Shown: positions 5,849-40,411 of the stretch, piece by piece
Layout of the letters: each line of letters starts with the position of its first letter
Numbering within the stretch: the stretch's first letter is position 1
Source: Escherichia phage RB16
Reading direction: 5' to 3' (one strand)
DNA length: 64,000 nt
Sequence record: NC_014467.1
Program-made: the position numbers and the translations under genes
Notes under the pieces: model-generated
Databases searched by the model: none
What the model was told of the DNA's origin: nothing
Seen by the model: only the letters and a program-made list of their open reading frames with translations

Positions 5849-6702
5849 TAATATCGGTTCCAAACTTTTTTCGCGCTGTATGGTTTTCCTTTCGACTGGA
5901 AAGCCTGTGTAGGCAACCAAACTGCTTTCGCCCAGTCTTTTGGGGCTATCTCTGCAAGAGGTGATCGCAGGTGCGCAGGTAAGTATGCTTTGATCATTTG
6001 ATCTGCACCGCGCATCCCTTTCACGTTGTTCCAGTTGATTTTCAATCTGGTTTTGTTTGAAAGGCGATCTGTTGATCCGTATCCACGTTTCAAAAGTTCT
6101 TCTAAAAACTCTTGACGGGCTTTAGGTGGCGCATAGTGCAAGTTCAAACCGTACAGAACTAAATTACCCGCTTTAGAACGTCCTGAACCCAGGAAGATGA
6201 TTAGCGGGAACCGATCCCAGTATGGTAGGGTATCTTTGTATTTCGCGTCATACACGAACGTATACAATCGCCCTGTTGCTGGTTTCGCTACCCTGTGCGT
6301 TTTGATGCTGGTTTTGATGAAGTCACCAAACCAATCGGTTGAATCCTTTTGACGTTTCGCAGCAGAAACACCCACTGTAATTTTCCGTAAACTATTTCGG
6401 AAGTCGTTGATGATGTCAACTGTATGTTTTTTGCGATAGTCATTGCGTTTTCGTCGGGCTTCGGTTTCTGCTGTACGTCGCGAGATTTCATCATCAATCT
6501 GCTGTTTATAGCGGTGCATAGACTTTGTGAACGTTGCGTATGCAATCCCGTTTTCGTCCGCGAATTTTTTGGCTGTCATGCCTTTTAATTTTGCGCGTCT
6601 GAATTTAACACCCAGTTCAACCCATTCACCAAGTTTTCGCTTCGGTGGCGGTTTCGGCTTATCTTCTTCTGCGATGATCTCAAACTCAAATATAAAACTC
6701 AT
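5848..6702 (-). CDS. 2: gp2 DNA end protector protein
   Basis: 284 aa, position and size as T4 gp2; basic N-terminus. Confidence 0.7.
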   Translation of the reverse strand: MSFIFEFEIIAEEDKPKPPPKRKLGEWVELGVKFRRAKLKGMTAKKFADENGIAYATFTKSMHRYKQQIDDEISRRTAETEARRKRNDYRKKHTVDIINDFRNSLRKITVGVSAAKRQKDSTDWFGDFIKTSIKTHRVAKPATGRLYTFVYDAKYKDTLPYWDRFPLIIFLGSGRSKAGNLVLYGLNLHYAPPKARQEFLEELLKRGYGSTDRLSNKTRLKINWNNVKGMRGADQMIKAYLPAHLRSPLAEIAPKDWAKAVWLPTQAFQSKGKPYSAKKVWNRY

Positions 6703-7388
6703 AATTCCCTCCGTTTACACTTATCACCATGCCAACGTTTAAACATACCCGGCCTGAAACTATTACCGCAGTATTGGCATTCCATTTTCTCTATATTTGA
6801 AACTGCTTCCCTTATGCGTATCTTTTGTTCTTCTGTTCGGGGTTTCCCCTTTCTAGCATCTGCTGATTTTTTTACTGCATCAGGGGGCATAGTTTTTCCT
6901 GAACATGAGATAGAAATTTTTTGTTTATGTTCTTCTGATAGAGATCTCCCTACCTTAGCGTTTCTCATCTTTTCTATAGACTGTTCGTTGAATAGCCCTG
7001 GTCGAGTTTTACCTTTCAATGGATTGACCCACCCATCTTTCATTTTGCGAGATTTACCTATTTTTGCTTTACTCATTTTCTCTCGCGTTTCGCTGGATGC
7101 TGTTGTGTATGATACCCCACCCTCCCCACCAATTTTTAAATTGTATGTGTGTTCCGATAGCACGAACTCGCGATTGACAAGTTCCTTTTCTTTATCATAC
7201 ATTTCAGAAGGGGTGTCAAACACATACAATATACTTTTTGTGAAGTTGTGTATGCCATATTTGGTTTGTGCTTTCAATAAAAGTTTACCAGACCCCATAT
7301 ACGAATCATTCACATCTGTGGTTGCATGTGCGCCGATATAAATTTTATCGTTGATATTGTTTTTAATCTGATAGACTAAATATTTCAT
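6699..7388 (-). CDS. GIY-YIG homing endonuclease (Seg-like) inserted between genes 2 and 4
   Basis: N-terminal KYLVYQIKNNINDKIYIGAHATT GIY-YIG motif; C-terminal CQYCGNSF zinc finger; start chosen at the Met before the motif, which abuts the gp4 stop (7385-7387) in ATGA form. Confidence 0.8.
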   Translation of the reverse strand: MKYLVYQIKNNINDKIYIGAHATTDVNDSYMGSGKLLLKAQTKYGIHNFTKSILYVFDTPSEMYDKEKELVNREFVLSEHTYNLKIGGEGGVSYTTASSETREKMSKAKIGKSRKMKDGWVNPLKGKTRPGLFNEQSIEKMRNAKVGRSLSEEHKQKISISCSGKTMPPDAVKKSADARKGKPRTEEQKIRIREAVSNIEKMECQYCGNSFRPGMFKRWHGDKCKRREL

Positions 7389-7858
7389 TTCTCGTACCCT
7401 TTCCATCCAAAAACACGTTTGAGGGTGTCTTCGGTTATGATCTTGAACTCCCATCCTTTTGCTTTACATGCAGCATTGGCGGCTTTCCATTTGTCTATAT
7501 TTATGGAGTAAACATAGAGAGCATCAACAAATTTCTTTTTGTTGTGAACGTTGTTGTTCGCTGGCTTAGGTGGGGGCAATGTTTCTTTCATCGGTTTGAC
7601 TTCCCATAGGTAGGTCACACCGTTATCCATCTCAACATAAAAATCCATGAAGTAACGCCGTCTTTTACCGTCTGCGTTGCTGAAATAAGGTATCACAACC
7701 TCTTCACTGTTCCAGCGTTTCACATGCGGATTCCTGTCAAGCCAGTTCATTATATATTTTTCCCAGCTTGACCGATACGTTATCTTTCGAGGATCGCCTT
7801 TATATTTTGTTATGTTCTGGGGCATAAAAGACCCCTTGTACGTCTGTCTTCCAGCCAT
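7385..7858 (-). CDS. 4: gp4 head completion protein
   Basis: 157 aa, position relative to genes 2 and 53. Confidence 0.7.
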   Translation of the reverse strand: MAGRQTYKGSFMPQNITKYKGDPRKITYRSSWEKYIMNWLDRNPHVKRWNSEEVVIPYFSNADGKRRRYFMDFYVEMDNGVTYLWEVKPMKETLPPPKPANNNVHNKKKFVDALYVYSINIDKWKAANAACKAKGWEFKIITEDTLKRVFGWKGYEK

Positions 7859-7902: not shown

Positions 7903-8457
7903 ATGTTATTCTCGTTCTTTCCACCAGTTGATTACAAAGGCACACCGACTACTGATATTTTTCGGGATTATCGTTTTTACTTTAATCGCGTTATCAGAAA
8001 TTATAAGCCACGTACTTATCAACTGACCGGATCACTAAGACCCGAACAATTAGCTGAAACGCTATACGGAAACCAACAATATTATTGGGTTATCCTGATG
8101 CTCAATGATAACTATGACCCGTTTTACGGATGGATTACAGATCAGGAAACCGCTTATCAATGCGCGGTGCAGCGTTATTCAAAAGTAGGTGGTGAACAGG
8201 TTCTTTATCATATGGATGGGAAAAACAACCGATATTACAATCTGGTTGAAGATCCTAACAACCCTGGTCATTGGTATGACAAAGGTGATAAAGATATGCG
8301 GTATTTGCAATATCAAGGAACATTAGTCCCTATTGATATTTATGAAGATGCAGTGTTGAAAAATGAATCAATGCGAACCATCAAAATTATTAACCCTTCG
8401 GATATTCAATCGTTTGTAAGCGATTATATCAAGGAAATGGAAAAGGCGAATCTATGA
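7903..8457 (+). CDS. 53: gp53 baseplate wedge subunit
   Basis: 184 aa, immediately upstream of gp5 with 4-nt overlap. Confidence 0.8.
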   Translation: MLFSFFPPVDYKGTPTTDIFRDYRFYFNRVIRNYKPRTYQLTGSLRPEQLAETLYGNQQYYWVILMLNDNYDPFYGWITDQETAYQCAVQRYSKVGGEQVLYHMDGKNNRYYNLVEDPNNPGHWYDKGDKDMRYLQYQGTLVPIDIYEDAVLKNESMRTIKIINPSDIQSFVSDYIKEMEKANL

Positions 8458-10220
8458 AATTCGGTGGAAATATGCATTCCCCTTTCTTTGAGGGGGTGGT
8501 CGAAAACGTTGATGATCCTCGTCTACTGGGGCGTGTTCAGGTGCGTGTATTTGGTGAGCATCCGGCACAGAAACAAAAATCTGAAACTATCGGTATTCCG
8601 GTTGAGGAATTGCCGTGGATGATGCCTATTCAGGATATTCGCAGCGCCGCTATTTCCGGTGTTGGTTTTTCTCCGACTGGTATTACGCGCGGTAGTTTCG
8701 TTATCGGTTACTGGCGCGATAAATGGCACCAGGACGGCGTTATACTGGGAACCTTTGCTGGTGAGTACCGAGAGAAACCGGACACCCAGAAAGGCTTCTG
8801 TGACCCGTTTGGTGAGTATCCTCGTTATGTAGGTAACGATGTCAACGTACTGGCTCGCGGTGGTGCAGAAGGACGCGGTTCTTCAAGCGTGATTATTCGT
8901 GATGCTAACAGTTCGTTAGCTGTCAATCCAGATGATCGCCCACTTGATGAGATTCCAGAAGATAACCGACCTGATACTGGTGGGTTTACGATAGAAAAAA
9001 TGATCCGTGGTGATGAAGGTATTAGATTGACGTGGTATTATGATGTTAAAGGTTATACCATCGGGATCGGACACTTTTTCTTAACCGCACCACAAGGAAC
9101 AGACCCAGCAGTTGTTAACGCGGCGTTATCTAGACAAATTGGCAGAACGGTTACTGGTGTTCCTGGATCAATCACTGCTGATGAAGCGAGTGTTTTATTT
9201 CAGCAGGATTTAGCTAAAGTTCATAACGATATTCAGAATAATAGCAAAGTTCGGGAAGTGTATGTGACGTTAAACCGTCCTCGTCAAATGGCTATTGAAA
9301 ATATGTGCTTCCAAATGGGCGTTGGCGGTGTCGCCAAATTTACTAATGCTCTGGCTGCTATGAAGCGTCAGGACTGGAAAACCGCTTACAACGAACTGCG
9401 AAACTCTACATGGGCTAACCAGACGCCAGGACGTTCTTCACGCGTATCTAAAATCGTGCTGACGGGCAACCTTGAATCATACGGTGTTCAGGTTCCAGAT
9501 CCAGAAGGACGTTCATTGAGTGCTGCTTATAATGCGGTGGTTCTGCAAACAAGCAACCCAGAAGATCCTTTTGTTCCTGGTGATACCCGCGTAATGTTCG
9601 AGGAACCTAAATCGGCATACGCTGCTGAATATCCATACAACATGGTATTCGAATCCCGTTCTGGACACATTCAGGAATTCGACGACACCCCAGGCTTTGA
9701 GCGTTACAACCGCGTTCACCCAGCAGGATCATACGAAGAAATTCGTCCTGATGGAACCCGTGTTGTTAAAATCGTTGGTGATGATTATCTGATTGTTCAA
9801 CAGGGAAGAAAGGTAAACATCAAAGGTAATTTACAAGTAGTGATCGAAGGTGATGCGTTCATTTACAATATGGGTAACGTTCAACAGACTGTCGATGGAA
9901 ACGTAACTGAGTTCGTGCGCGGTAACGTAAACCAGACTGTCGAGGGTGAATATGTTGGGCGTATCAAAGGTAACGCAGAATTAACCGTCGAAAAAGATGC
10001 TACTGTAAACGTGGATCAGAATTTAATGGCTAACGTTAAACAGAATGCAACTGTTAACGTAACCGAAGATGCAACTGTTACCGCAAAAAATGCGATGATG
10101 GATATTGAACAAGACTTCGATTTAAACGCGAACAATATCACAATGGTTGCCCGACAAAATACACTAATCGATTCCGGTTCTCTGACTAAGATTACTGGCG
10201 GGACAGTCCAGGTAGGTTAA
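8454..10220 (+). CDS. 5: gp5 baseplate hub subunit and tail lysozyme
   Basis: Central T4-lysozyme-like domain (EGIRLTWYYDVKGYTIGIGHF...FQMGVGGVAKFTN...WANQTPGRSSRV) and C-terminal beta-helix repeats (VNQTVEGEYVG, NATVNVTEDATV). Confidence 0.95.
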   Translation: MKFGGNMHSPFFEGVVENVDDPRLLGRVQVRVFGEHPAQKQKSETIGIPVEELPWMMPIQDIRSAAISGVGFSPTGITRGSFVIGYWRDKWHQDGVILGTFAGEYREKPDTQKGFCDPFGEYPRYVGNDVNVLARGGAEGRGSSSVIIRDANSSLAVNPDDRPLDEIPEDNRPDTGGFTIEKMIRGDEGIRLTWYYDVKGYTIGIGHFFLTAPQGTDPAVVNAALSRQIGRTVTGVPGSITADEASVLFQQDLAKVHNDIQNNSKVREVYVTLNRPRQMAIENMCFQMGVGGVAKFTNALAAMKRQDWKTAYNELRNSTWANQTPGRSSRVSKIVLTGNLESYGVQVPDPEGRSLSAAYNAVVLQTSNPEDPFVPGDTRVMFEEPKSAYAAEYPYNMVFESRSGHIQEFDDTPGFERYNRVHPAGSYEEIRPDGTRVVKIVGDDYLIVQQGRKVNIKGNLQVVIEGDAFIYNMGNVQQTVDGNVTEFVRGNVNQTVEGEYVGRIKGNAELTVEKDATVNVDQNLMANVKQNATVNVTEDATVTAKNAMMDIEQDFDLNANNITMVARQNTLIDSGSLTKITGGTVQVG

Positions 10221-10222
10221 TC

Positions 10223-12295
10223 ATGATCATGGATTATGAATCCATCATTGATGGAATTATGCAAGATTTTCAGCATCCATGTGATGCTGAAATACCTGCT
10301 GGATCGTACAGACGTATTATCTGGCAGGGACATACAGAAGACTACCCCGCTGTCGGGGTAGAATGGGATACTGAAATAATTCCGATCGGGGCGCATCTTT
10401 ACACACAATCCCCTTTCGGACAGAAAAGCGATCCGCTTCCGGTAGTTAACTCCCCTGGAACCGATCCAGGAACTGGGGAAGCAACTGGGATTCTTGTAGA
10501 AAAGATAGGTTATTATTTCGCCACACAACAGGAGATTGATGACTATATCACTTCTATCGGGGCAACAAAACTAACTGGTAATGATTGGTACGGCGCGGAT
10601 CTGACAAAAGCAAACCTGTATAAAAACCCTGGGGAACTCGCGATGTATAAGGTCGAGAACTCTGGAGGTTATTTGCTTACTTCTGGCCCACGTTGCGATC
10701 AACGCATCAGACAGGCATATAATGAGGACACAGGCGCGTTTACAAGCATTGATTACTATTGGAATGGTAATCGTATTGCCTACATGAAACACGACGACAC
10801 AGGGGCGCACAATTGCAAATACGTGGGTATGGTGGTTAACACCAACGCCGACACAAGCATTCCCCCTGTACCTCCGGCTATGCCGTCAATTTACGGGGCA
10901 TTGCCTAGCGAAATTTCAATGATGCGCTCCGGTTTGGGTTGTCTTCCTGCAACGGTAGGTTTTGCGTACACGAATATCAGTGATGCAATGCTATCCGCAT
11001 GGAACGAAACGCGCAAGTCGTTTAAGCTCGTGTTTGATATGCTTACGGGTATCACTAAAACGGGTTCCGGTGGTATCTCCACGATGTACGATGGTTTGTC
11101 TATCGCAATGGAGGAAATCACAGCAGGTGCTCTTGCGTTGTCACAGCAAGCATGGCAAGCCGCAATTAAGGTGTTCAAAGATATTATGTCTTCTGCGTTA
11201 AACATCGTAGGTGGTGCGTGGAACATGATAAAGAGTTTTTTACCGACTGTTACGATTCTGGGTGTTTCAATAAACATCTATGATTTGATTTTTGGTGATA
11301 ACTCAGTACAGACACTGAAAGATTCATTCCAAGCGATCATTGATGCTGGTACAGAAACCTATGAGAACGTCATAAACGCAATATACAGCGCTATAGGCAG
11401 TGCATACAATTATACCGTTGAATATGTCAAGGCTGGCGCTCGCGACCTCGTGGATGCTTGCAGTACGCTTTTTGACTGGTGTATTACCATGTTTCAGAAT
11501 GGTTGTGTTGCTCTGGTGGATCTGTACGGACGAATAATGCAAATCTGGGCTATGCCTCCAACGGTTCCAAACCCTTTATGGGCTGCTGTTCTGGCTATCC
11601 GTAACATTATGATGCAAATCAAACCGCTTGATGTGATCCTGGGTGGAAACTTCCCTGGGTTTACGGCAATGGATTTGTACCAAATGGCACAGGAGAAGGT
11701 GAAAGAGTTTATCGATCAGTCGTATGCGCAAATACGCGTGTATTATGATCAGGTTAAGGATCTGTATAACACACTGACTACACAGACACAAGAAAGGGAT
11801 GCGATTAAACGCAAGTTCGATCAATACCTAAACTGGATGTGGGAACCTGTAAAGGAAGCAACGACTGCTGCTTATCAGGCTGCACTTGATGCCGCTAACG
11901 CTGCTGTGAATGCGACTAAGGCCGCATATGAGGGAATCAAAGCACAGATTGCTAATCTGCAAAATGGGATGAAAGACACCTACAGCATGGCAATGGCTGA
12001 ACTCAAGAAACTGCCTGTAATGGCTCAGATTAACCAGTTCTTAGGTTACTGTGGGGTTGCATTCGATGACCTGTTAAAAACGTATGAGAACGCGCTGACG
12101 GGCGCACAATCGCTATATAAAAACTTTGTTGACAGTTCCCGCTCGTTTAAGGACACATGCAAGGTGATTTATAACCAGATTTGTACGCTTGCTCTAAGTA
12201 AGGTAACTCAATACGTAAACAAATTATTGTCATTAATCGGACTCGCGATCACATTCGGTTCAATTAGTGTTTGCGTCCCTATGGTTCAATACTAA
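10223..12295 (+). CDS. large hypothetical protein (690 aa) directly after gp5; candidate spike-tip/baseplate-associated protein
   Basis: Long uninterrupted ORF, start 3 nt after gp5 stop; N-terminal region with His/Cys and P-A-x-G-like repeats, long helical/hydrophobic C-terminal part; no recognisable T4 counterpart. Confidence 0.7.
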   Translation: MIMDYESIIDGIMQDFQHPCDAEIPAGSYRRIIWQGHTEDYPAVGVEWDTEIIPIGAHLYTQSPFGQKSDPLPVVNSPGTDPGTGEATGILVEKIGYYFATQQEIDDYITSIGATKLTGNDWYGADLTKANLYKNPGELAMYKVENSGGYLLTSGPRCDQRIRQAYNEDTGAFTSIDYYWNGNRIAYMKHDDTGAHNCKYVGMVVNTNADTSIPPVPPAMPSIYGALPSEISMMRSGLGCLPATVGFAYTNISDAMLSAWNETRKSFKLVFDMLTGITKTGSGGISTMYDGLSIAMEEITAGALALSQQAWQAAIKVFKDIMSSALNIVGGAWNMIKSFLPTVTILGVSINIYDLIFGDNSVQTLKDSFQAIIDAGTETYENVINAIYSAIGSAYNYTVEYVKAGARDLVDACSTLFDWCITMFQNGCVALVDLYGRIMQIWAMPPTVPNPLWAAVLAIRNIMMQIKPLDVILGGNFPGFTAMDLYQMAQEKVKEFIDQSYAQIRVYYDQVKDLYNTLTTQTQERDAIKRKFDQYLNWMWEPVKEATTAAYQAALDAANAAVNATKAAYEGIKAQIANLQNGMKDTYSMAMAELKKLPVMAQINQFLGYCGVAFDDLLKTYENALTGAQSLYKNFVDSSRSFKDTCKVIYNQICTLALSKVTQYVNKLLSLIGLAITFGSISVCVPMVQY

Positions 12296-12318
12296 ATACC
12301 CGATAACGAGGGGTAATA

Positions 12319-12996
12319 ATGAATTACGATAGGATATATAAAGCTCTTATAGATAAGCGGAGGAAAACTCCGCTTAAAGACGGATATAAGGAACATCATC
12401 ACATCATTCCTAAATCTATGGGCGGTAGTGATGATTTTGATAATATGGTGTATTTGACAGCGAGAGAACATTTCGTTGCGCATCTTTTACTCGCTCGTAT
12501 ACATGGTGGTAAGATGTGGTTTGCTGTTGCTATGATGTGTGGGCGTGGATCAAGTAGCGCGAAAGGCGTTGTCCCTACTTCTCGAATATATGAGTTAGCC
12601 AAAAAACGGGTAGCCAATGAAAGAAGTATATTGTTTTCTGGGAAATTACATCCATTATACGGAAAGCCTTGTACAGAACAACGAAGAAAACGCATAGCTG
12701 AAGGACGTAAAGGGAAAACGCATACTCAGGAAACGAAACAGAAAATGTCTGAATCGAAGAAAGGATATAAACATACTCAGGAGACGAAACAGAAAATGTC
12801 TGAGTCACGGAAGAGACAAACACCTCCTACTCTGGGTAAAAAGTTACCTTCTCCATCAATCGAAAAAAGAAAGAAACTTAGTGAGGCTATTAAAAATCAG
12901 CCAATCATCAAATGTCCATATTGCGGGTTAGAAAGTAACAGCAAAGGAAATATGGTGAGGTTTCATTTCGACAACTGCAAATATAGGAAACCATGA
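12319..12996 (+). CDS. HNH homing endonuclease with tandem NUMOD3-like DNA-binding motifs
   Basis: HNH core EHHHIIPKSMGGSDDFDNMVYLTAREHFVAH; repeats GKTHTQETKQKMSESKKG / YKHTQETKQKMSESRKR; C-terminal CPYCG zinc finger. Confidence 0.85.
   Translation: MNYDRIYKALIDKRRKTPLKDGYKEHHHIIPKSMGGSDDFDNMVYLTAREHFVAHLLLARIHGGKMWFAVAMMCGRGSSSAKGVVPTSRIYELAKKRVANERSILFSGKLHPLYGKPCTEQRRKRIAEGRKGKTHTQETKQKMSESKKGYKHTQETKQKMSESRKRQTPPTLGKKLPSPSIEKRKKLSEAIKNQPIIKCPYCGLESNSKGNMVRFHFDNCKYRKP
12721..12815 (+). repeat. tandem direct repeat (about 51 bp x2) encoding the NUMOD3 motifs
   Basis: CATACTCAGGAAACGAAACAGAAAATGTCTGAATC... repeated with few substitutions. Confidence 0.7.
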
Positions 12997-14909
12997 TGGC
13001 TACAACTCGTAAGCAAATTAATCAGATCCCCGATATCTTTGTCGGGGCTACTTTTGACGAAATCAAATCTGACTTAATCAACTGGCTCCGAGGTCAGGAC
13101 GAATTCAAGGATTATGATTTCTCCGGCTCGCGCATGAACGTACTTGTGGATCTGTTATCATACTGTACACTGTACATTCAGCAAATGAGTAACACCGCAC
13201 TGTTCGAATCGTTTATTCGTACCGCTGCATTGCGTAGTTCTGTTGTCCAACAGGCTCAGGATTTGGGCTATATGCCGGACTCCCGTACCGCTGCAAATAC
13301 TGCGATCCTGATCACTGCGAAGAACCCACTGAACCCGACATCGATCCGTATTCCACGCGGTACGAAATTCATTGGTACAGTGAAAGAAACAAACAGTTTC
13401 CCGTTCGTCGTATCCGATGACGTGGTGATTGTTCGTGATAAAGACAATAACTATGTTTCGATGTTGAACATCGTACAGGGGCGTTTAGTCCGTACCGAAG
13501 TCATCTTTGATGGTTCTACGATCCTGATTCGAGATCCTAACATCGACCGTAGTCAGGTTCGCGTTACTGTCAACGGCGCTCAATGGGATGACTGGACAAA
13601 CGAAAGTATCGTAAACGCAACGGGCGCATCAACAATTTTCTACATGCGTGAAACTGTGGATGGACATACCGAAGTTTACTTTGGTGAAGGTGAAACCAGC
13701 CAACAGGTCGCAGGTGGTGCTCTGACTGCGGATTACATCGGTGGCTTGAAACCTGCAAACGGTTCAACCGTTGTTATTGAATATATTTCAACCAACGGCG
13801 AAGAAGCAAACGGTGCTGAAAACTTTGTCTACGTGGATACGTTGACAAACATTAGCATTACGAATATTGTTGAGAACCCGACTGATTCAGCGGACTATGT
13901 AGGCGCTGATGGTGGTGGTGAACCGGAAGATATCGAACGTATTCGTGAACTCGCGCCTATTATGCGTGAGACACAGCGCCGTTGTGTTACTGCATCGGAT
14001 TATGAATCGTTCCTGTCTCACCGTTTCGGTTCTGTTATTCAGGCGGTTCAGTGCTTTACTGATAAAGAAAAACCTGGCTATGCGTTCATCGCTGTTAAAC
14101 CGAAATCAGGGTTGCGCTTAACCTCTGTTCAAAAAGAGGACATGCAAAACTATCTGGCGAAGTATAACCTGGCGACTATTACGCCGTCTATCCTTGACCC
14201 GAACTACCTGTATATTGTACAAAGCGTTAAAGTAACGTATGATATCAGTAAGTTGATCGAGTCTGAGGAATGGTTGCGTGGTCAAGTAATCAATGAAATT
14301 GACAGATACTACACAGATAACGTTGAAATTTTCAACAAATCTTTCAGTAAATCCAAGATGTTGACTTATGTTGATAACGCGGACGTGTCGATCATTGGTT
14401 CTTCTGCGACTATTCAGCTATTGCGTGAACTGGATAACTATTACAGCGCCCCGATGTCTGGTATTCACTTCTTAAACCAGGTGAAATCACGTTCTGTTGT
14501 TTCGAATGGGTTCAAGTACACAAATGCTGCTGGTGATTCGTATGATGTGCGCTATGCGTCAACAGATATGAACACCACGACCGGACTCGCGAAAATGGTT
14601 ATCGGGCCATTCAAAAACGGTGATATCGGTATCGCAGCCTATACAGGAAACGATTTTGATAAATATCCTGGAGTAACCGATCGTGATAAATATTACGAAG
14701 TCGGCTATGTGGAACATTTTAATGATTTCATTAGTTTCGATCTTGGTGTCCTGAACGTTCCATCCGAGCGATTCAGCGCTGCTTACATCGAACTGACTGG
14801 TACACCTCTGGAAGAGAACATTTTCACCCGTGATGGTTCTCTGATTGTATTTGAAAACGATCTACGTCCTCAATATACAACGTTGACGATGAATCCAATC
14901 AGTCAATAA
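12993..14909 (+). CDS. 6: gp6 baseplate wedge subunit
   Basis: N-terminus IPDIFVGATFDEIKSDLINWLRGQDEFKDYDFSGSRMNVL and internal ADGGGEPEDIERIRE match T4 gp6 as I recall it; 638 aa. Confidence 0.9.
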   Translation: MMATTRKQINQIPDIFVGATFDEIKSDLINWLRGQDEFKDYDFSGSRMNVLVDLLSYCTLYIQQMSNTALFESFIRTAALRSSVVQQAQDLGYMPDSRTAANTAILITAKNPLNPTSIRIPRGTKFIGTVKETNSFPFVVSDDVVIVRDKDNNYVSMLNIVQGRLVRTEVIFDGSTILIRDPNIDRSQVRVTVNGAQWDDWTNESIVNATGASTIFYMRETVDGHTEVYFGEGETSQQVAGGALTADYIGGLKPANGSTVVIEYISTNGEEANGAENFVYVDTLTNISITNIVENPTDSADYVGADGGGEPEDIERIRELAPIMRETQRRCVTASDYESFLSHRFGSVIQAVQCFTDKEKPGYAFIAVKPKSGLRLTSVQKEDMQNYLAKYNLATITPSILDPNYLYIVQSVKVTYDISKLIESEEWLRGQVINEIDRYYTDNVEIFNKSFSKSKMLTYVDNADVSIIGSSATIQLLRELDNYYSAPMSGIHFLNQVKSRSVVSNGFKYTNAAGDSYDVRYASTDMNTTTGLAKMVIGPFKNGDIGIAAYTGNDFDKYPGVTDRDKYYEVGYVEHFNDFISFDLGVLNVPSERFSAAYIELTGTPLEENIFTRDGSLIVFENDLRPQYTTLTMNPISQ

Positions 14910-14914
14910 TTTAC

Positions 14915-14944
14915 AACCCCTGTCATTTGGCAGGGGTTTTTTGT
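14915..14944 (+). terminator. rho-independent terminator after gp6
   Basis: CCCCTG-tcatttgg-CAGGGG followed by T6. Confidence 0.65.
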
Positions 14945-14989
14945 TTGCTAAATATGGGATATAAGTAAAACGCAAATTTGGAGAAACAT

Positions 14990-17900
14990 ATGATTAAAGC
15001 GCCGTCAATTACCAGTTTGCGCGTTGATAAACTGGCTGCTAACTTCGTTTATTTGAAGTGGGATAGCGTCGGCATGGATTTTTACTATGTCGTGGAAATG
15101 GCTGAAACTCGCGGTGCGGGTGGTGCTGTGATTCCAGATGCGGATCTAACATGGTTCCAGTTGGGCTATGCGTATGTGAACGAATGGTTCTCTACTGCTG
15201 TGCAACCGGATAGCTTTTACAAATTCCGTATTAAGGTTACACATCAGGGATTTGAACCGTCTGATTGGGTTTACAGTGATGAACTCTGGACATTCACCCT
15301 TAACGCCTACGCATATTCAACCATGCGCGAATTTACACCAAGTGACGCATTTATAAACGAAAAATTCGCAAAGAACAATCAGAATTACGTGAATTTTAAT
15401 ACAGATGTGGTAATGGCAGCGTTGATGAAAGAAGACTTTGTGTTTTCTCCACTGTACACTGACGTATCCCAGATTAGTGATAAGATTCTTACACAGGAAA
15501 ACTATCACGAGATCCAGGATCACATTGAACACGTTTGTAATGACATTAACAGAACTTTTCTGGTAGCGTCAAACGGTTTGTTATATCTGTTTGAACGTTT
15601 TCAGAACATGGCTAAGGTATCCAATGACAAGGGGCAAACATGGCATTACTACAAGGCGTTTAACGACCGCGTAGGAAACCCCGTATCGCGTTCTGTCGCG
15701 TACCAAAGCACAAACACAACATATGTACTGGGTTACGACCGGATCTTCTACGGGCGCACCTCAACGGATATTCGCTGGTCTGCTGACGATGTGCGATTCT
15801 CTGCTGACGATATCATCTTTGCAAAACTGGGGAACCAGACAGGGTTAGATTTTGATGTTGACTCATACAATACCTTTGCAAAACTTCCTGGTGATGTATC
15901 GAAATATGCAGAAGCAATGGCATGTTCCGACGATTGGCTTTATGTTGCAGCGAAAAACATAGTTCGTCGTATTGCTCTGAAACAAACACCGATCGACACC
16001 GATCCGAGTTCTCCAACTTTTGGGGAAAAGATTTTCGACGAAACAAGCTATACCATTGTTCCAGGCAATGATAAAATTGTTGTTAAGAAAATGGATGTGA
16101 TGGACAGCAAACTTTACGTGCTCGTTACAGGCGAAGTTAAAGTTGCTCTGCAAGATCCAACAAAACCGGAAAACGTAGTTCCTTCTGTTGATTCTGGTGT
16201 GTATCAGTGGCAAGAAGACACTAAAACCTTTGTGCGCCTGTATGGGAACACTGAGGAAGAACGTTTCTTCATTGAACATGAATACACCAATATGTCAACA
16301 AACGGAAAAGAAATTTATATTTCTGTTGCCAACTACAAATACCCAGGAACTTTGCCAGATCCTGAACTGCTGATAACTAATCCTGAATTGGTTGCTGCTG
16401 TTAAGTATGATTTGCGTCCTGGCTATACTGCTAGTCTGTCTATCAACTTTGCTACTATTCGAGCAAATATTGATGATCCGACCGTGTGGAAATTCGGCGC
16501 ACAGGAATACTACAACGAGGCAAATTATAGCTGGTTCTTCCGTGATTCTGTTCGTACATGGATCACGAATGATAACCGTCCGTTGGTTGTGTATCCGAAA
16601 ATTGTATATGAAATGGTAACTGATACCGCTGGACCTTCTTCTACGTTGCGCGTCAACAAAGAGGTGTGGGATCGTGGACATGTTACAATTTACATTAACA
16701 ACATTAAATTTACCGGATTTACCAAATACACTAACGGTGTGTTGTTGTATAAAAGTTCTGGTGAAATTATCGGGTTCTTTGAACTGAGTTACCGCGCTCG
16801 TGATAGCCTTACGATTTTCTGGAAACCAGATAACACATTACTGATTGCGGATCTTATTCAGCAGGAAAGGGAACAACCTTATGTACCGGATTTGTCGCCC
16901 GGTTTGATTGATCCTGATTTAAGCCATATGATTACTCGCTTTGCACCACAAAGCTATCTGGATCAGGAATATTTCGAGAAGTTTGGTGAATATTATTTGC
17001 AGTTCGTTTCGTTGGGTGAAAACACCTACTATAACAAATTGCTGAACCTTATCAGGAACAAATATCCACGCGAGAAGAACTGTGTTGAATATTTGTGGTC
17101 GGAAGTAAACCGACGCAATATCTATCTGGATAAAACGAAGCGTGATCAAGTTGTGCGATTCTTTGAATCCCGTGCGAGTGATTTTTACTCCACGAAAGGT
17201 ATCGAGGCAAGTTATAAATTCCTGTTCAAACTGCTGTACAACGAAGACGTATCCGTAGAAATCGAGAGTTCAAACACTCTGGAATATGATATACTGGTTT
17301 CTTCGACTAACATCAGTCAGGACATTGTAGGGCGCACGATTTATACACCAACAGCAAGAGCAAACGTGACATATATCGAACGTGATTATGAAGACGGGCA
17401 ATTGCGATGGTCTATGACTCTGCATAACGTGATCGGTAACTTCCTTGAAGGACAGGTTGTTAAGTCAGAAAAGACTAATTTCACGGGTAGTATTCTGCGT
17501 GGTGTTCGTGGTAAGCAAATGGCGAACAACTCGATCGACTATTTCAACCGTGGGCGTTCATACTACGTGATGAAAATCCGTTCAAACCTTCCGGCTTCTC
17601 GTTATAAAGATGACGTGTTGCGGTTTGTGCATCCGGTAGGTTTTGGCTTTATCGGGATCACTATGCTGACGGTGTTCATTAACTCCGGTTTGTCGATGAC
17701 CCATAGTGAAACAATCATTGATATCCTCCGAAACTATCGCTTTGATAGCGGATATCCTAAGTATTGGCCCGATCGTGTTGCACGTCTTGACGGTAACGGA
17801 AACCAGACATTTGACCTTGTAACAGGTGAAGCATTATATGAACCACACCCTAAAGCGGGGCAACCGTTCGATGTTCCACCACAATATGACATTGATGAAC

Positions 17901-23828: not shown

Positions 23829-26117
23829 ATGATTTCAAAACTTAACCCGTTACCAAAGATCCCGTTTGTTGATGGTGTCCCTTCGGACACCACACAAACC
23901 CCGATCAACTGGATAATTAACGGCGAAACTCTCGATGGTGCTAAAACCAAAGTCACTAACGAGGGTTCTTTAAACAGGTGCGGTGTTCTGGTACAAAAGA
24001 ACGCGGTGCAATTAGAAACCAACACCATTACACAGACTGCAAAAATCAACGAAGTTATCGATCAGGTTAACCTCATTAGTGAAAACCTCGCGGCTATTTC
24101 TGATGAAAGCGTGATTGACAAACTGGATCAGGTTGTTGCTGATGTAGAAGTGTTGAAAGTTGATATGACTGCGGTTCAAGGTTCTACTGCAAGCAATACC
24201 CTGAAAATCCAGGATCTCGATAAAGAGATCGGGACGTGGGACGCTTCAACAGATCCTAAACACCGTACCATTCGAAAAGATATTATTTTCCTGAAAGGGG
24301 AAATGGGTGCGTACCCTGGGTTTAACGAAAACGGCGACGTAGATCCGACATCAACGGGTTCCGGCATGAAATACAAAATCATGACGAACGCGCAAGCGAT
24401 TTCGATTCATGAAGGACGTATTACGCGCCTTGAAGATGATTGGGCTAACTCAGACGTAGGTCATTTAACTGATGAAGTAACCGATCTGCGTAACGAAATG
24501 GGGCCAAAACATTTAGCGACGTTTGAATCTGTATATGTTCGTCTAAACATTATCGGTACTGAGATCACTGGTATCAATTCCGAACTAACCAGCATCAACC
24601 AATATATCGGTCGTACTGGCACGGGTGGAACTGGTAGTATTTCTGCGCGTATGACTACAGCAGAATCGAATATCGCAACCCTGCAAACACAGATGAATGA
24701 TTCTGCTACTGGTGTATTACCTCGCGTAATTTCTTTGGAAAATGCTGTCGGTAACTCTCAGATCCCTGGTAGTATTCGTTACGACATCAGCGCAATCAAA
24801 CGTGACATCGGTGATATCAACATGATCGTCGGTGAATCAAGCGATGATGGTCTTCGTGGGGAAATGGCTCAGGTTATGACCGATATCGGTACTGATTCAC
24901 AGCCTACGAGCATCAAAGGCCGTTTGCTGAACGTTGAGAACACCCAACGTGACGATCACCAGAAACTGATTGACGTTGAATCTGTTGTTGGTAATACTTC
25001 AAGTGGACTCGTTGCGGCTAATATCGCGATGGGTAAAGCTGTTTACGGTGATGCAACGAGTTCTGATCCATTCCTGAAAGACGGTATTCAGAAAACAGCG
25101 CGTGACAGTAAAGCGGCTATCGGTGTAAACACAACCGGATCGGAAACAGGGATCTATAAACTGATTTCAGATTTGACTGCTCGTGTTGCTGCACTTGAAA
25201 GCGGTACTGGTGGCGAACTTGAACAACGTGTTTCTGATTTGGAAACCAATAAAGCATCGCATCAGGACGTTGCAAACGCATTGGTTCCGTATATTACCGA
25301 AGCGGAAGCAGATGTTAAGTACGAACCGAAGAAAATTCCGTTATCGTTTACGCAAAACCTTGTTAGGCGTGGCGATTATATCGAAGGTGATGACATTTCT
25401 TTCATGGTTACGGTAACAGGTGGTAAACTGCCTTATGTCTACCAGTGGAAGAAAGGAACCGCTGATGTAGGTACTAACGCATCGAGCATTCTGATCCAAA
25501 GCATTACCTCTGCCGACGCTGGCGTGTATAAAGTTGTTGTTACCGATGCAGACAACACCGTAATTACTTCTGACGAAGTGACGGTTGCTGTTTATCCGGT
25601 TCCTCAGTTTGATACTAACCTGGCTGACAAATCGGTGGTTGACGGTGATCCTCTGACTCTGGAAGTTGTATACAGCGGTGGTAAACCTCCGTACACTTAC
25701 GAATGGTTCAAAGATAACTCTGTTATCTCTGGGGAAACATCAGCAACATTTACCAAATCTGCTGTTACAAGCGCTGATGCTGGTGAATACTATGTTTCTG
25801 TAACTGACGCAATGAACAACCAAAACGATTCAGTGAAAGCAACCGTGACTGTAACACCTCGTCCGGCTCTTGCATTCACTACGGATCTGAGTGCTACTAA
25901 ATCATACAGCACAGGTGCTAACATGGATCTTGCTGTTGTCGTGACTGGTGGTAAAACACCATATACGTATAAATGGTTTAAAGACACTGCGGAAATTTCC
26001 GGTCAGACAGGCGCAAGCCTTACCACTGTAGCAGAAGATGGGGTGTATAAAGTCGAAGTGACGGATGCACTAACGACTAAAATAACATCAACTGAATGCA
26101 CGGTAACTGTGGCATAA
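23829..26117 (+). CDS. wac: fibritin (wac) with three C-terminal Ig-like repeats
   Basis: N-terminal LPKIPFVDGVPSD...NWIINGETLDGAKT and segmented coiled coil resemble T4 fibritin; no foldon-like C-terminus, instead three ~90-aa repeats (VTVTGGKLPYVYQWKKG..., VYSGGKPPYTYEWFKD..., VVTGGKTPYTYKWFKD...). Confidence 0.85.
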   Translation: MISKLNPLPKIPFVDGVPSDTTQTPINWIINGETLDGAKTKVTNEGSLNRCGVLVQKNAVQLETNTITQTAKINEVIDQVNLISENLAAISDESVIDKLDQVVADVEVLKVDMTAVQGSTASNTLKIQDLDKEIGTWDASTDPKHRTIRKDIIFLKGEMGAYPGFNENGDVDPTSTGSGMKYKIMTNAQAISIHEGRITRLEDDWANSDVGHLTDEVTDLRNEMGPKHLATFESVYVRLNIIGTEITGINSELTSINQYIGRTGTGGTGSISARMTTAESNIATLQTQMNDSATGVLPRVISLENAVGNSQIPGSIRYDISAIKRDIGDINMIVGESSDDGLRGEMAQVMTDIGTDSQPTSIKGRLLNVENTQRDDHQKLIDVESVVGNTSSGLVAANIAMGKAVYGDATSSDPFLKDGIQKTARDSKAAIGVNTTGSETGIYKLISDLTARVAALESGTGGELEQRVSDLETNKASHQDVANALVPYITEAEADVKYEPKKIPLSFTQNLVRRGDYIEGDDISFMVTVTGGKLPYVYQWKKGTADVGTNASSILIQSITSADAGVYKVVVTDADNTVITSDEVTVAVYPVPQFDTNLADKSVVDGDPLTLEVVYSGGKPPYTYEWFKDNSVISGETSATFTKSAVTSADAGEYYVSVTDAMNNQNDSVKATVTVTPRPALAFTTDLSATKSYSTGANMDLAVVVTGGKTPYTYKWFKDTAEISGQTGASLTTVAEDGVYKVEVTDALTTKITSTECTVTVA

Positions 26118-27831: not shown

Positions 27832-27888
27832 ATAAGTTAAATGGGTATAGGCGGAAGTCTATACCCTCTTCAAAGAGGGGTTTATGAT

Positions 27889-28614
27889 ATGGTTGCAAAA
27901 ATCTCTATAGAACAACGAGAACATCAATTAAAAGAACGTTGTGCGGAATTAGAACTATCTTTTGATGGATGGGTAGACCAATCAGCGATCACAAAATATT
28001 CAAAGTTTTATGTTGTTTGCAGTAAAGGACATAGAACAGAAAAACAGATCAAACCATTTGTCAACAAAAGTCGTCCAAACGGATGTTATTTGTGTTCTCC
28101 TAAGATGAAAATATCAAAGGAAAACAGAATCGAGGAAATCAAAACTCTTGCAGATTCAATTGGATATACATTCATAGATTTCGTTGGGGTGTATAAAGAT
28201 GCTCACACAAAAATATCAATGGTTTGCGATAAAGGCCATAATTGGGATGTAAGTATAGTTGCTTTTCTCAATCAAGGTCATCGCTGTAAAAAATGCGCAA
28301 CGTCTGGGTTCAATACGAACAAACCAGCATACGTATACGTACAATCACTATCTGGAAAATTTCTGAAATTTGGGATAACCAACAGAACACCAAAGAAAAG
28401 AATGTGTGCGCAATCAAATAAATCCGTTTATAAACACGAACTGGTTTATCAAAAATTATTCGATAAAGGTATTGATGCAATGAGTATTGAACAGAAGATC
28501 AAACAATCTCTTGTTTGTGGCGTAGTTGATAAATCAGATATGATGGATGGATATACAGAAACAACAGATATATCCAATTACGATAAACTGTTGAATATTA
28601 TAGAAGGAGTATAA
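27889..28614 (+). CDS. zinc-ribbon repeat protein with C-terminal GIY-YIG-like segment; putative free-standing endonuclease between genes 14 and 15
   Basis: Two CxKGH...CxxC modules; C-terminal PAYVYVQSLSGKFLKFGITNRTPKKR resembles a GIY-x10-YIG core; start at MVAKISIE with AGAGGGG SD (track ORF starts at 27841). Confidence 0.45.
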   Translation: MVAKISIEQREHQLKERCAELELSFDGWVDQSAITKYSKFYVVCSKGHRTEKQIKPFVNKSRPNGCYLCSPKMKISKENRIEEIKTLADSIGYTFIDFVGVYKDAHTKISMVCDKGHNWDVSIVAFLNQGHRCKKCATSGFNTNKPAYVYVQSLSGKFLKFGITNRTPKKRMCAQSNKSVYKHELVYQKLFDKGIDAMSIEQKIKQSLVCGVVDKSDMMDGYTETTDISNYDKLLNIIEGV

Positions 28615-39772: not shown

Positions 39773-40411
39773 ATGAAACACATCATTTATAAAATAACAA
39801 ACACCATCAATAACAAAATATATGTTGGTGCTCACTCAACCGAAGATATCAACGATTCATACATGGGTTCCGGTATTGCAATCAAAAAAGCGCAAAAGAA
39901 ATATGGTATGGAACATTTCACAAAAGAAATACTTCATGTATTTGATACCCGTGAAGAAATGTATGAGAAGGAAAGGGAAATAGTTGATATTGAATTCATA
40001 AATCGACCAGATACATATAATGCTGGTATTGGTGGTAAAGGTGCTCCAATGGCGTTGATTGGATGGAGTGATGAACAACGCAAGCTGATTTCCGAAAATA
40101 CTTCGAAAGCTATGCAAACTCCAGAAATGCGCGAACGCCTTTCAAAAATAAAAACAGGGAAGAAGCAATCAGAAGAATCCAACAGGAAGCGTTCAGAGAC
40201 TATCAAAGCTATGTACAAGGGTTCTGCATTCGACAGAACCGGATCTAAGCTCACAGACGCGCACAAGGCCAAAATAAGCCGTTCTGTGTCGATAGATGGA
40301 GTTGTTTACGCAAGCGGTTCCGATGCTTCTAAAGCGTTGGGGCTTTCTCGATCTGGCCTTGATTACCGTTTAAAGAGTGACAAATTTCCTGAATGGAAAT
40401 TCGTTGCATAA
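39773..40411 (+). CDS. segD: GIY-YIG homing endonuclease (SegD-like) between genes 23 and 24
   Basis: N-terminal HIIYKITNTINNKIYVGAHST GIY-YIG motif; same position as T4 segD; clear paralogue of the endonuclease at 6699-7388. Confidence 0.85.
   Translation: MKHIIYKITNTINNKIYVGAHSTEDINDSYMGSGIAIKKAQKKYGMEHFTKEILHVFDTREEMYEKEREIVDIEFINRPDTYNAGIGGKGAPMALIGWSDEQRKLISENTSKAMQTPEMRERLSKIKTGKKQSEESNRKRSETIKAMYKGSAFDRTGSKLTDAHKAKISRSVSIDGVVYASGSDASKALGLSRSGLDYRLKSDKFPEWKFVA

What the first reader, a model, noticed from the sequence alone, without database searches (positions are those of the whole stretch)
12319..12996. HNH endonuclease with tandemly duplicated NUMOD3 motifs between the 690-aa ORF and gp6
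The gene has an HNH core and two nearly identical NUMOD3-like DNA-binding repeats encoded by a 51-bp tandem DNA duplication, which looks recent. Its stop overlaps the gp6 start. Together with the GIY-YIG genes and the zinc-ribbon gene at 27889, the structural block carries an unusually high load of free-standing endonucleases, about five candidates in 64 kb.
Basis: seen in the sequence. Interest (0 to 1): 0.4.

Follow-up and report, generated by a model that had tools for sequence, protein, structure and literature searches.

The report
Mob-like HNH homing endonuclease, phage RB16
This is an ordinary, already annotated selfish "homing" nuclease gene of coliphage RB16, inserted exactly at the start codon of baseplate gene 6; its flanks still carry the recombination scar of its arrival, and its repeated DNA-binding motif is old but varies in copy number in nature.

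Summary
ORF 12319-12996 encodes a 225-aa protein with an intact HNH motif, NUMOD3 repeats and a C-terminal C2HC zinc finger. Two NUMOD3 units come from a 51-nt tandem repeat, and the stop codon overlaps the gp6 start.

The window is coliphage RB16. The protein is ADJ55496.1, already annotated "putative Mob-like HNH homing endonuclease". Its first 98 aa are 49% identical to T4 MobE. RB16's high endonuclease load is published (10 genes); five lie in this window.

New here:
- **Insertion.** A 677-bp insert sits exactly at the gp6 ATG. It is absent from 53 related phage records.
- **Recombination scar.** RB16 is 87% identical to GAP161 overall but about 100% identical for 0.5 kb left and 2.1 kb right of the insert.
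- **Likely target.** HEG+ and HEG- alleles differ only by the insert and six substitutions in 10 bp (AAG AAA to CGT AAG). This points to a target at the gp6 5' end.
- **Age of the duplication.** It is not recent. An 85%-identical homolog has both copies, and a third of silent sites differ.
- **Copy number.** Two 208-aa variants each lack exactly one unit.

Known kind, modest interest.

The parts
11825..12321 (.). Left co-conversion tract. These 497 bp are 100% identical to GAP161-type phages, while the RB16 backbone further upstream is 72-83% identical.
12308..12313 (+). Shine-Dalgarno GAGGGG. It serves gp6 in genomes without the insert and here serves the HNH gene.
   Evidence: Junction alignment with the empty sites of GAP161 and KPN-12i and with six IMG/VR empty sites.
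12322..12998 (+). The 677-bp insertion relative to genomes without it. The boundary is ambiguous by the 3-nt ATG present at both ends.
12319..12996 (+). Mob-like HNH homing endonuclease gene (225 aa), identical to ADJ55496.1 / YP_003858492.1 of phage RB16.
12354..12376 (+). Strong RNA hairpin (9-bp stem, 5-nt loop, -15 kcal/mol, z -6.05) beginning 35 nt after the AUG, with no U tract. It lies at the same place as the functional terminator hairpin of T4 mobE.
   Evidence: PMC2790892 section 21
12391..12483 (+). HNH catalytic motif, aa 25-55 (EHHHIIPKSMGGSDDFDNMVYLTAREHFVAH). The family-invariant residues are E25, H27, H28, P31, N42, H51 and H55.
12658..12708 (+). NUMOD3-like unit 1 (aa 114-130, core CTEQRRKRIAEGRK), diverged from units 2 and 3.
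12709..12759 (+). NUMOD3 unit 2, the first copy of the 51-nt tandem repeat (KGKTHTQETKQKMSESK).
12760..12810 (+). NUMOD3 unit 3, the second copy of the 51-nt tandem repeat (KGYKHTQETKQKMSESR). One unit's worth is missing in the 208-aa variants P0124 and P0127.
12841..12894 (+). NUMOD3-like unit 4 (aa about 175-192, core SIEKRKKLSEAIK).
12913..12978 (+). C-terminal C2HC zinc finger (C199, C202, H216, C220). These four residues are invariant in 25 aligned homologs. No Pfam model matches it.
12985..12998 (+). New translation start for gp6 supplied by the insert: AGGA, then ATG ATG overlapping the HNH stop codon TGA.
13004..13013 (+). Six substitutions in 10 bp of gp6 codons 3-6 (ACT ACA AAG AAA becomes ACA ACT CGT AAG; only K5R changes the protein). 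They are strictly linked to the insert and are the inferred immunity and target-site polymorphism.
12999..15102 (.). Right co-conversion tract. These 2,104 bp, through gp6 into the gp6-gp7 spacer and the start of gp7, are about 100% identical to GAP161-type phages. Identity drops to 79% from 15103.

Best explanation
The gene is a free-standing homing endonuclease gene (HEG) of the T4 Mob family.

**Architecture.** It has an N-terminal HNH nuclease domain, then four NUMOD3 minor-groove helices, two of which form an old tandem duplicate, then a C-terminal C2HC zinc finger.

**Insertion.** The 677-bp element sits exactly at the start codon of baseplate gene 6. The endonuclease takes over gp6's ribosome-binding site and ATG. 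gp6 restarts from a new AGGA..ATGATG that overlaps the endonuclease stop codon.

**Proposed mechanism (inferred).**
1. In a mixed infection the enzyme nicks or cuts the gp6 5' region of a relative that lacks the gene.
2. Repair copies the gene, together with flanking DNA, from the genome that carries it.
3. The carrier is protected by the insertion itself and/or by six substitutions in gp6 codons 3-6.

**History.** RB16 itself looks like a recipient. It received the gene plus about 0.5 kb of upstream and 2.1 kb of downstream flank from a GAP161-like donor.

**The repeat.** The NUMOD3 duplication predates an 85%-identity split in the gene's lineage. What is recent is its occasional contraction by one unit.

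**Shown and inferred.** Shown here: the sequence anatomy, the presence/absence pattern, the linkage of the substitutions to the insert, the recombination patch and the length variants. Inferred: nuclease activity, the exact cleavage position and how self-protection works.
For: **Identity of the gene.**
- HNH and NUMOD3 score above Pfam cut-offs.
- The first 98 aa are 49% identical to T4 MobE, E 3e-27.
- The HNH residues are invariant across 67 sequences.
- It is annotated as a Mob-like HNH HEG of RB16, and one mob-like HNH is counted for RB16 in PMC2993671 Table 5.

**Presence/absence.**
- 53 of 54 Pseudotevenvirus records in the phage collection have an empty site.
- So do six IMG/VR genomes, including RB43.
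- The junction is precise.
- GC content is 39.1% against 44-45% in the flanks.

**Recombination patch.**
- RB16 and GAP161 are 87.3% identical over 59.5 kb.
- Only four near-100% patches exist. Two are the immediate flanks of this gene (11813-12322 and 13011-15114), and a third covers another HEG.

**Linked substitutions.**
- Within the patch, alleles with and without the gene differ only by the insert and by six substitutions at 13004-13013. Position 14189 is private to RB16.
- The chance of such clustering is about 2e-11.
- The variant occurs only with the gene: 1 of 1 carrier records, against 36 empty-site records that carry exactly the other allele.
- The lysine codon AAG became the arginine codon CGT, with all three bases changed for a conservative replacement. 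That argues for selection on the DNA sequence rather than on the protein.
- The same pattern is reported at the MobE nick site: AAG in phages without mobE, CGG or CGA among those in phages with it (PMC2790892 discussion).

**The repeat.**
- Both copies are present in the 85%-identical cluster.
- Precise one-unit deletions occur in both clusters.
- There are no internal indels in ten other family clusters of about 100 members.
Against: - There is no experimental evidence for cleavage or homing by this protein. MobE itself could never be shown active in vitro (PMC2790892).
- Mosaic patches unrelated to HEGs exist in this genome, for example 8416-8830. The patch could in principle be ordinary recombination.
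- The cleavage site could lie anywhere in the 2.6-kb patch.
- The DNA of the 208-aa variants and the genomic site of the 85% homolog could not be retrieved. The contraction is therefore seen only at the protein level, on short metagenome contigs.
- No usable structure model was obtained.
Confidence: 0.8

Rival explanations
1. The gene is a decaying or inactive endonuclease that no longer cuts. It is carried passively, and the near-identical flanks reflect ordinary homologous recombination between co-infecting Pseudotevenviruses.
For: The gene is rare, in 1 of 54 records plus RB16. A mosaic patch with no HEG also exists at 8416-8830. Defunct HEGs are known, such as T4 I-TevIII.
Against: - All catalytic and zinc-finger residues are intact.
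- Full-length copies are identical across independent sources: the RB16 genome, KPN-11i and recent Dutch sewage metagenomes.
- The 85% homolog keeps its full length and all invariant residues.
- The patch is centred on the gene, and the six linked substitutions are hard to explain without a nuclease.
Confidence: 0.1
2. The protein's main role is competitive exclusion of related phages, or regulation of gp6 expression. It would be a domesticated nuclease or DNA-binding protein, and spreading itself would be secondary.
For: HEG nucleases contribute to the partial exclusion of T2 by T4 (PMC2993671). The gene controls gp6's translation start through the overlap and carries a strong 5' hairpin like the regulatory one in mobE.
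Against: Most close relatives do without it, so it is not needed for gp6 expression. Exclusion and homing use the same cleavage, so this is more a different emphasis than a different mechanism.
Confidence: 0.07
3. The 51-nt tandem repeat is a recent duplication or an assembly artefact, as the first reader proposed or feared.
For: Core identity is high at 33 of 35 nt. Two 208-aa forms exist and could be read as the ancestral single-copy state.
Against: - The repeat is identical in five independently obtained sequences.
- Both copies, with copy-specific residues, are shared across an 85%-identity split.
- 4 of 13 silent sites differ.
- Each 208-aa form carries its own cluster's substitutions elsewhere in the protein. 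Two independent deletions are therefore more parsimonious than two surviving ancestors.
Confidence: 0.03

Closest known systems
T4 MobE (free-standing HNH homing endonuclease between nrdA and nrdB; Wilson & Edgell 2009, PMC2790892)
   Same: - The N-terminal HNH domain is 49% identical over 98 aa.
- Both are free-standing genes squeezed between two conserved genes, with start and stop codons abutting the neighbours.
- Both have a hairpin about 30 nt after the AUG.
- Both show a polymorphic Lys (AAG) to Arg (CGN) codon in the downstream gene that distinguishes phages with and without the endonuclease.
- T4 MobE has one NUMOD3-like motif (SEETRLKMS, read).
   Different: - The RB16 protein is longer (225 against 141 aa), with four NUMOD3 units and a C2HC zinc finger.
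- It targets a baseplate gene (gp6) rather than nrdB.
- The polymorphic site is 6-15 bp from the insertion point, not over 100 bp into the downstream gene.
- Its hairpin lacks a U tract.
- No experiments exist for it.
I-HmuI (intron-encoded HNH nicking endonuclease of Bacillus phage SPO1)
   Same: HNH catalytic domain followed by an extended DNA-binding region that includes a NUMOD3 minor-groove helix (as summarised in PMC3664794). Both are modular and bind long, asymmetric sites.
   Different: I-HmuI is intron-encoded and ends in a helix-turn-helix. The RB16 gene is free-standing with no intron (no Rfam hit) and ends in a zinc finger. No PDB chain matched beyond the HNH motif itself; the best hit was a group II intron maturase at E 0.0016.
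I-TevI / I-BmoI and the Seg proteins (GIY-YIG homing endonucleases with NUMOD3 linkers)
   Same: The same DNA-binding building blocks are used. I-BmoI has three predicted NUMOD3 repeats, and I-TevI combines a zinc finger with a NUMOD3 helix. Intronless homing with co-conversion of flanks up to about 2 kb is documented for T4 (PMC2790892).
   Different: The catalytic domain is different (GIY-YIG, not HNH). The window has three such genes of its own, at 6699-7454, 39773-40411 and 57404-58483.
Mob-like homologs in other Straboviridae (E. coli phage phiS between nrdA and nrdB; Klebsiella Jiaodavirus between denA and rnlA)
   Same: About 40% identity over the full length, with the same HNH, NUMOD3 and C2HC architecture.
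   Different: They have different insertion sites, and so presumably different targets. They lack the near-identical adjacent NUMOD3 pair and the 5' hairpin.

Membership tests
HNH (beta-beta-alpha-metal) endonuclease superfamily | HNH motif with the catalytic His, the structural Asn and the metal-binding His | tested here: met
   PF01844 scores 24.7 bits against a 21.4 cut-off. H27, H28, N42, H51 and H55 are invariant in the 67-sequence alignment. The motif aligns to solved HNH domains.
HNH (beta-beta-alpha-metal) endonuclease superfamily | beta-beta-alpha fold | tested here: inconclusive
   The single-sequence AlphaFold model had pLDDT 45 and is unusable.
T4 Mob-like free-standing HNH homing endonucleases | Sequence homology to MobA-E | tested here: met
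   49% identity, E 3e-27, to T4 MobE over aa 1-98. The source annotation is 'Putative Mob-like HNH homing endonuclease'. Only MobE was compared; MobA-D were not.
T4 Mob-like free-standing HNH homing endonucleases | Free-standing gene in an intergenic position, not in an intron or intein | tested here: met
   It is inserted at the gp6 ATG, between the 690-aa ORF and gp6. No RNA family hit was found.
Homing endonuclease gene (functional definition) | Presence/absence polymorphism at a fixed site among close relatives | tested here: met
   53 of 54 phage records and six IMG/VR genomes are empty at this site. Wherever the exact protein was found, it is always at this site.
Homing endonuclease gene (functional definition) | Co-conversion of flanking markers with the gene | tested here: met
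   A patch of about 100% identity (11825-15102) is centred on the gene in a backbone that is 87% identical. This is a natural-history inference, not the result of a cross.
Homing endonuclease gene (functional definition) | Site-specific cleavage of the allele lacking the gene, and super-Mendelian inheritance | not testable with these tools
   This needs mixed infections and mapping of nicks or breaks.
NUMOD3 DNA-binding repeat (PF07460) | Match to the NUMOD3 profile | tested here: met
   56.3 bits against a 20.4 cut-off, with three stretches. A fourth unit was found by motif scan.
I-HmuI-type intron-encoded HNH endonucleases | Encoded inside a group I intron | tested here: not met
   No Rfam match in 11700-13400 at E up to 1. 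The gene lies upstream of the gp6 start and does not interrupt a coding sequence.

The most novel reading that the evidence does not exclude
The near-identical NUMOD3 pair could act as a natural length switch. Gain or loss of one 17-aa minor-groove helix (the 225-aa and 208-aa forms, both seen in two lineages that are 85% identical) would change the distance between the zinc-finger anchor and the HNH active site. That would move the nick position or change the target preference. Repeat-number polymorphism would then be a way for this endonuclease to keep up with target-site escape. The hypervariable residue just before unit 3 (K/H/R/S at position 151; Y/C at 150) would fit a DNA-contact role.
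Probability: 0.1. Interest if true: 0.55.

Novelty: already known. Interest (0 to 1): 0.28.

Why it matters
The gene and RB16's high endonuclease load are already in GenBank and in the literature. The value here is documentary.

- **A natural homing footprint.** The insertion has precise boundaries, the co-converted flanks end sharply (0.5 and 2.1 kb), and one six-base cluster narrows the likely target and immunity determinant to gp6 codons 3-6.
- **A ready experiment.** KPN-11i carries the gene and KPN-12i does not. Both were isolated on the same Klebsiella strain, so a clean homing cross is possible for a Mob-family enzyme. Direct biochemistry has been elusive for this family.
- **A side result.** A modular DNA-binding repeat in a homing endonuclease varies in copy number in nature. 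This is small but testable, and it bears on how these enzymes, and engineered nucleases built from the same modules, set the spacing between binding and cutting.

Tried and rejected
- **Tandem Repeats Finder.** It did not report the 51-nt repeat even at minimum score 30. The repeat finder did.
- **Context of the variants.** The insertion site of the 85% homolog and the DNA of the 208-aa variants are therefore unknown.
- **IMG/VR scan with P0002.** It found only RB16 itself as a close relative.
- **Metagenome scan.** None of the ten members of the two close clusters comes from JGI, so the yield would probably be nil.
- **RB16 record.** RB16 is not in the annotated phage collection. I used GAP161's annotation, which cross-references RB16 accessions.
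- **Structure.** The single-sequence model was too poor for fold search (pLDDT 45).
- **Terminator-like hairpin at 12458-12478.** Rejected: z -0.29.
- **Late promoter upstream of the gene.** Only 6 of 8 matches to TATAAATA in RB16 and GAP161, though the match is exact in RB43-type genomes. I do not claim a promoter.
- **5' hairpin as a family-wide feature.** Rejected: it is present in RB16 and T4 mobE and absent in two other homologs.
- **Unit-sized indels as a family-wide feature.** Rejected: ten other clusters show only terminal truncations.
- **NCBIfam.** Nothing useful.

Full report
**What is there**

ORF 12319-12996 (+) encodes 225 aa.
- Pfam places an HNH domain at aa 24-46 (24.7 bits, cut-off 21.4) and NUMOD3 repeats (56.3 bits, cut-off 20.4, three stretches).
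- PHROG 655 'homing endonuclease' matches over the whole length at E 1e-60.
- The motif EHHHIIPKSMGGSDDFDNMVYLTAREHFVAH aligns to solved HNH domains.
- E25, H27, H28, P31, N42, H51 and H55 are invariant in a 67-sequence family alignment that includes T4 MobE.
- A C-terminal CxxC-x13-H-x3-C zinc finger (C199, C202, H216, C220) is invariant in 25 homologs and has no Pfam model.

The tandem repeat is 12709-12759 and 12760-12810. The copies share 41 of 51 nt and 14 of 17 aa, and the longest exact run is 20 nt. A motif scan finds four NUMOD3-like units in all, at aa 116, 133, 150 and 177. The TGA stop overlaps two in-frame gp6 ATGs.

**Where the window comes from**

The window is 100% identical over 10,675 bp to a 176,788-bp IMG/VR genome. 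The protein is ADJ55496.1 / YP_003858492.1, 'Putative Mob-like HNH homing endonuclease' of Escherichia phage RB16. Three other window proteins are also RB16 entries. The window is therefore RB16 (Pseudotevenvirus), roughly genome positions 96-160 kb. RB16 is missing from the annotated phage collection. The nearest record there is Klebsiella phage iPHaGe-KPN-11i at 99.8%.

Petrov et al. 2010 list ten putative homing endonuclease genes (HEGs) for RB16: two seg-like, one other GIY-YIG, one mob-like HNH and six HNH-AP2 (PMC2993671 Table 5). The gene and the high endonuclease load are thus already known.

**It is a mobile insertion**

Of 54 related phage records, 53 align in two pieces with 677 bp missing. 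Six IMG/VR genomes, including RB43, are also empty at this site. The junction is exact:
- Empty sites read GAGGGGTAATA-ATG-GCTAC...
- RB16 reads GAGGGGTAATA-ATG-AATTAC...AGGAAACC-ATG-ATG-GCTAC.

The endonuclease therefore uses what is gp6's ribosome-binding site and ATG in other phages. gp6 restarts at an ATG that overlaps the endonuclease stop, behind a weaker AGGA carried by the insert. The gene's GC content is 39.1% against 44-45% for its neighbours. No intron or other RNA family is detected.

Wherever the exact protein was found, it sits at this same site. These are KPN-11i, three Dutch sewage metagenome contigs and a Logan contig. In the four whose DNA could be read, the 677 bp show 0 mismatches to the window.

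**A recombination scar around it**

RB16 and GAP161 are 87.3% identical over 59.5 kb of this window. Only four stretches are near 100% (at most one mismatch per 300 bp):

| Stretch | What it covers |
|---|---|
| 6683-7606 | another HEG, the GIY-YIG gene at 6699-7454 |
| 8416-8830 | the gp53/gp5 junction, no HEG |
| 11813-12322 | left flank of the HNH insert |
| 13011-15114 | right flank of the HNH insert |

Identity drops sharply to 72-83% upstream of 11825 and to 79% from 15103. More than 36 genomes without the gene share the patch sequence in a uniformly GAP161-like backbone. The patch is therefore native to that lineage, and RB16 is the recipient.

The simplest reading is that RB16 acquired the gene by gene conversion from a GAP161-like carrier such as KPN-11i, with 0.5 kb and 2.1 kb of flank copied along. 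This matches the roughly 2-kb maximum co-conversion reported for T4 homing (PMC2790892 discussion).

**Where the enzyme probably acts**

Inside the patch, carriers and non-carriers differ only by the insert and by six substitutions at 13004-13013. Position 14189 is private to RB16. Six of seven differences falling within 10 bp has a probability of about 2e-11.

The change is ACT ACA AAG AAA to ACA ACT CGT AAG. That is three silent changes plus K5R, written with all three bases of the codon changed. This looks like selection on the DNA rather than on the protein.

In the phage collection the variant occurs only in the one carrier record. Thirty-six empty-site records carry exactly the other allele. 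More distant empty-site genomes also keep AAGAAACAAAT.

Since a carrier must not cut itself, the determinant of immunity, and hence at least part of the target, must lie at the gp6 start region. The parallel with MobE is close. MobE-dependent nicks fall in a Lys codon (AAG) of nrdB, and in some mobE-carrying phages that codon is Arg (CGG or CGA). This step is inference; no cleavage data exist.

**The NUMOD3 duplication**

It is not recent.
- The cluster that is 85% identical (P0002, P0126, P0128) has both units, with the same copy-specific beginnings: GK(T/F)H.. against GY(K/H/R/S)H...
- Between the two RB16 copies, 4 of 13 degenerate codons that encode the same residue differ.
- In the core, codon identity (8 of 11) exceeds the 4.8-5.6 expected from codon usage only marginally, P 0.04-0.12.

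Each of the two close clusters contains one 208-aa member, P0124 (ENA) and P0127 (Logan). Each lacks exactly 17 aa and has a hybrid junction, GK(T/F)|HTQETKQKMSESRKR. Each is otherwise like its own cluster's 225-aa form. Two independent contractions by recombination within the shared core are the most parsimonious reading.

Assembly collapse is unlikely in RB16-type DNA, where the longest exact repeat is 20 nt. I could not obtain the contigs or reads to exclude it.

Ten other family clusters, about 100 members, show only terminal truncations. The instability therefore appears specific to this near-identical adjacent pair. Across the family, the number of NUMOD3 units ranges from 0 to 6 by a crude scan, and similar within-protein pairs occur elsewhere.

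NUMOD3 units are minor-groove-binding helices in I-TevI, I-HmuI and I-BmoI (PMC3664794). A unit gained or lost could in principle change the spacing between anchor and active site. This is speculation.

**Regulatory detail**

A strong hairpin lies at 12354-12376 (9-bp stem, -15 kcal/mol, z -6.05), beginning 35 nt after the AUG. T4 mobE has a 9-bp hairpin 27 nt after its AUG that works as a weak terminator (PMC2790892). Folding both genes puts the two hairpins at the same place, nt 36-58 and nt 33-54. The RB16 hairpin has no U tract, and two other homologs lack any hairpin. Its role is open.

**Comparison with known systems, and verdict**

This is a member of the T4 Mob family of free-standing HNH homing endonucleases.
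- Defining features tested and met: HNH motif, homology to MobE, free-standing position, presence/absence polymorphism, co-converted flanks.
- Not testable here: cleavage and super-Mendelian inheritance.
- It is not an I-HmuI-type intron-encoded enzyme.

The finding is ordinary and already annotated. What this work adds is a well-resolved natural homing footprint, a narrowed candidate target, and a small copy-number polymorphism in the DNA-binding repeat.

Noticed in passing
window 27841/27889-28614 (insert 27867-28604 relative to GAP161): A gene between gp14 and gp15 is absent from GAP161. It has two CapR-homology/treble-clef zinc-finger stretches (Pfam E 6.5e-18) and matches PHROG 681 'endonuclease', but no recognised catalytic domain. 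It is RB16 ADJ55507.1, and close copies (same 90%-identity cluster) occur in some other Pseudotevenviruses (leE, Lw1, Cronuts, JC03). It may be a mobile nuclease of an uncharacterised type.
   Followed up: partly
window 57404-58483: A 359-aa SegE-like GIY-YIG gene (Pfam E 4e-34; RB16 ADJ55547.1) sits between nrdC and nrdD. GAP161 and RB43 have gp49 endonuclease VII at exactly this position, and no gp49 sequence aligns here. Petrov 2010 remarks that RB16 appears to have circumvented the need for gp49.
   Followed up: partly
window 6683-7606: The Seg-like GIY-YIG gene between gp2 and gp4 (6699-7454, minus strand), with 16 bp and 152 bp of flank, is 99.8% identical between RB16 and GAP161, whose backbones are 87% identical. 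This looks like a second, independent trace of recent HEG spread. The Seg-like gene at 39773-40411 shows no such patch.
   Followed up: partly
window 8416-8830: A 415-bp patch at the gp53/gp5 junction is 99.8% identical to GAP161 and has no endonuclease gene next to it in either phage. It is unexplained. It may be a remnant of a past homing event or ordinary mosaicism.
   Followed up: no
window 10223-11824 (within the 690-aa ORF 10223-12295): The first three quarters of the 690-aa ORF (PHROG 5296, with weak tape-measure-like matches) is among the most divergent DNA between RB16 and GAP161, at 72-83%. The homolog is 695 aa in GAP161 and KPN-11i. Its function is unknown.
   Followed up: no
window 13028-13047: An 8-bp GC-rich hairpin (CCCCGATATCTTTGTCGGGG, followed by CTACTTTTGA) lies 30 nt into gp6 and is identical in GAP161, which lacks the insert. 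It sits in the conserved block next to the putative target. It was flagged as terminator-like, but inside an essential gene.
   Followed up: partly
HNH protein aa 150-151 (window 12766-12771): The two residues just before the third NUMOD3 unit are the most variable in the ten close homologs (YK, CK, YH, YR, YS), while the rest of each cluster is at least 97% identical.
   Followed up: no
proteins P0039 and P0049 (homologs; alignment A4): Some family members carry two copies of the C-terminal C2HC zinc-finger module. This module, which has no Pfam model, therefore also varies in number.
   Followed up: no
window 25856-26099: A 244-bp stretch at the 3' end of the whisker (wac) gene has no counterpart in GAP161.
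   Followed up: no
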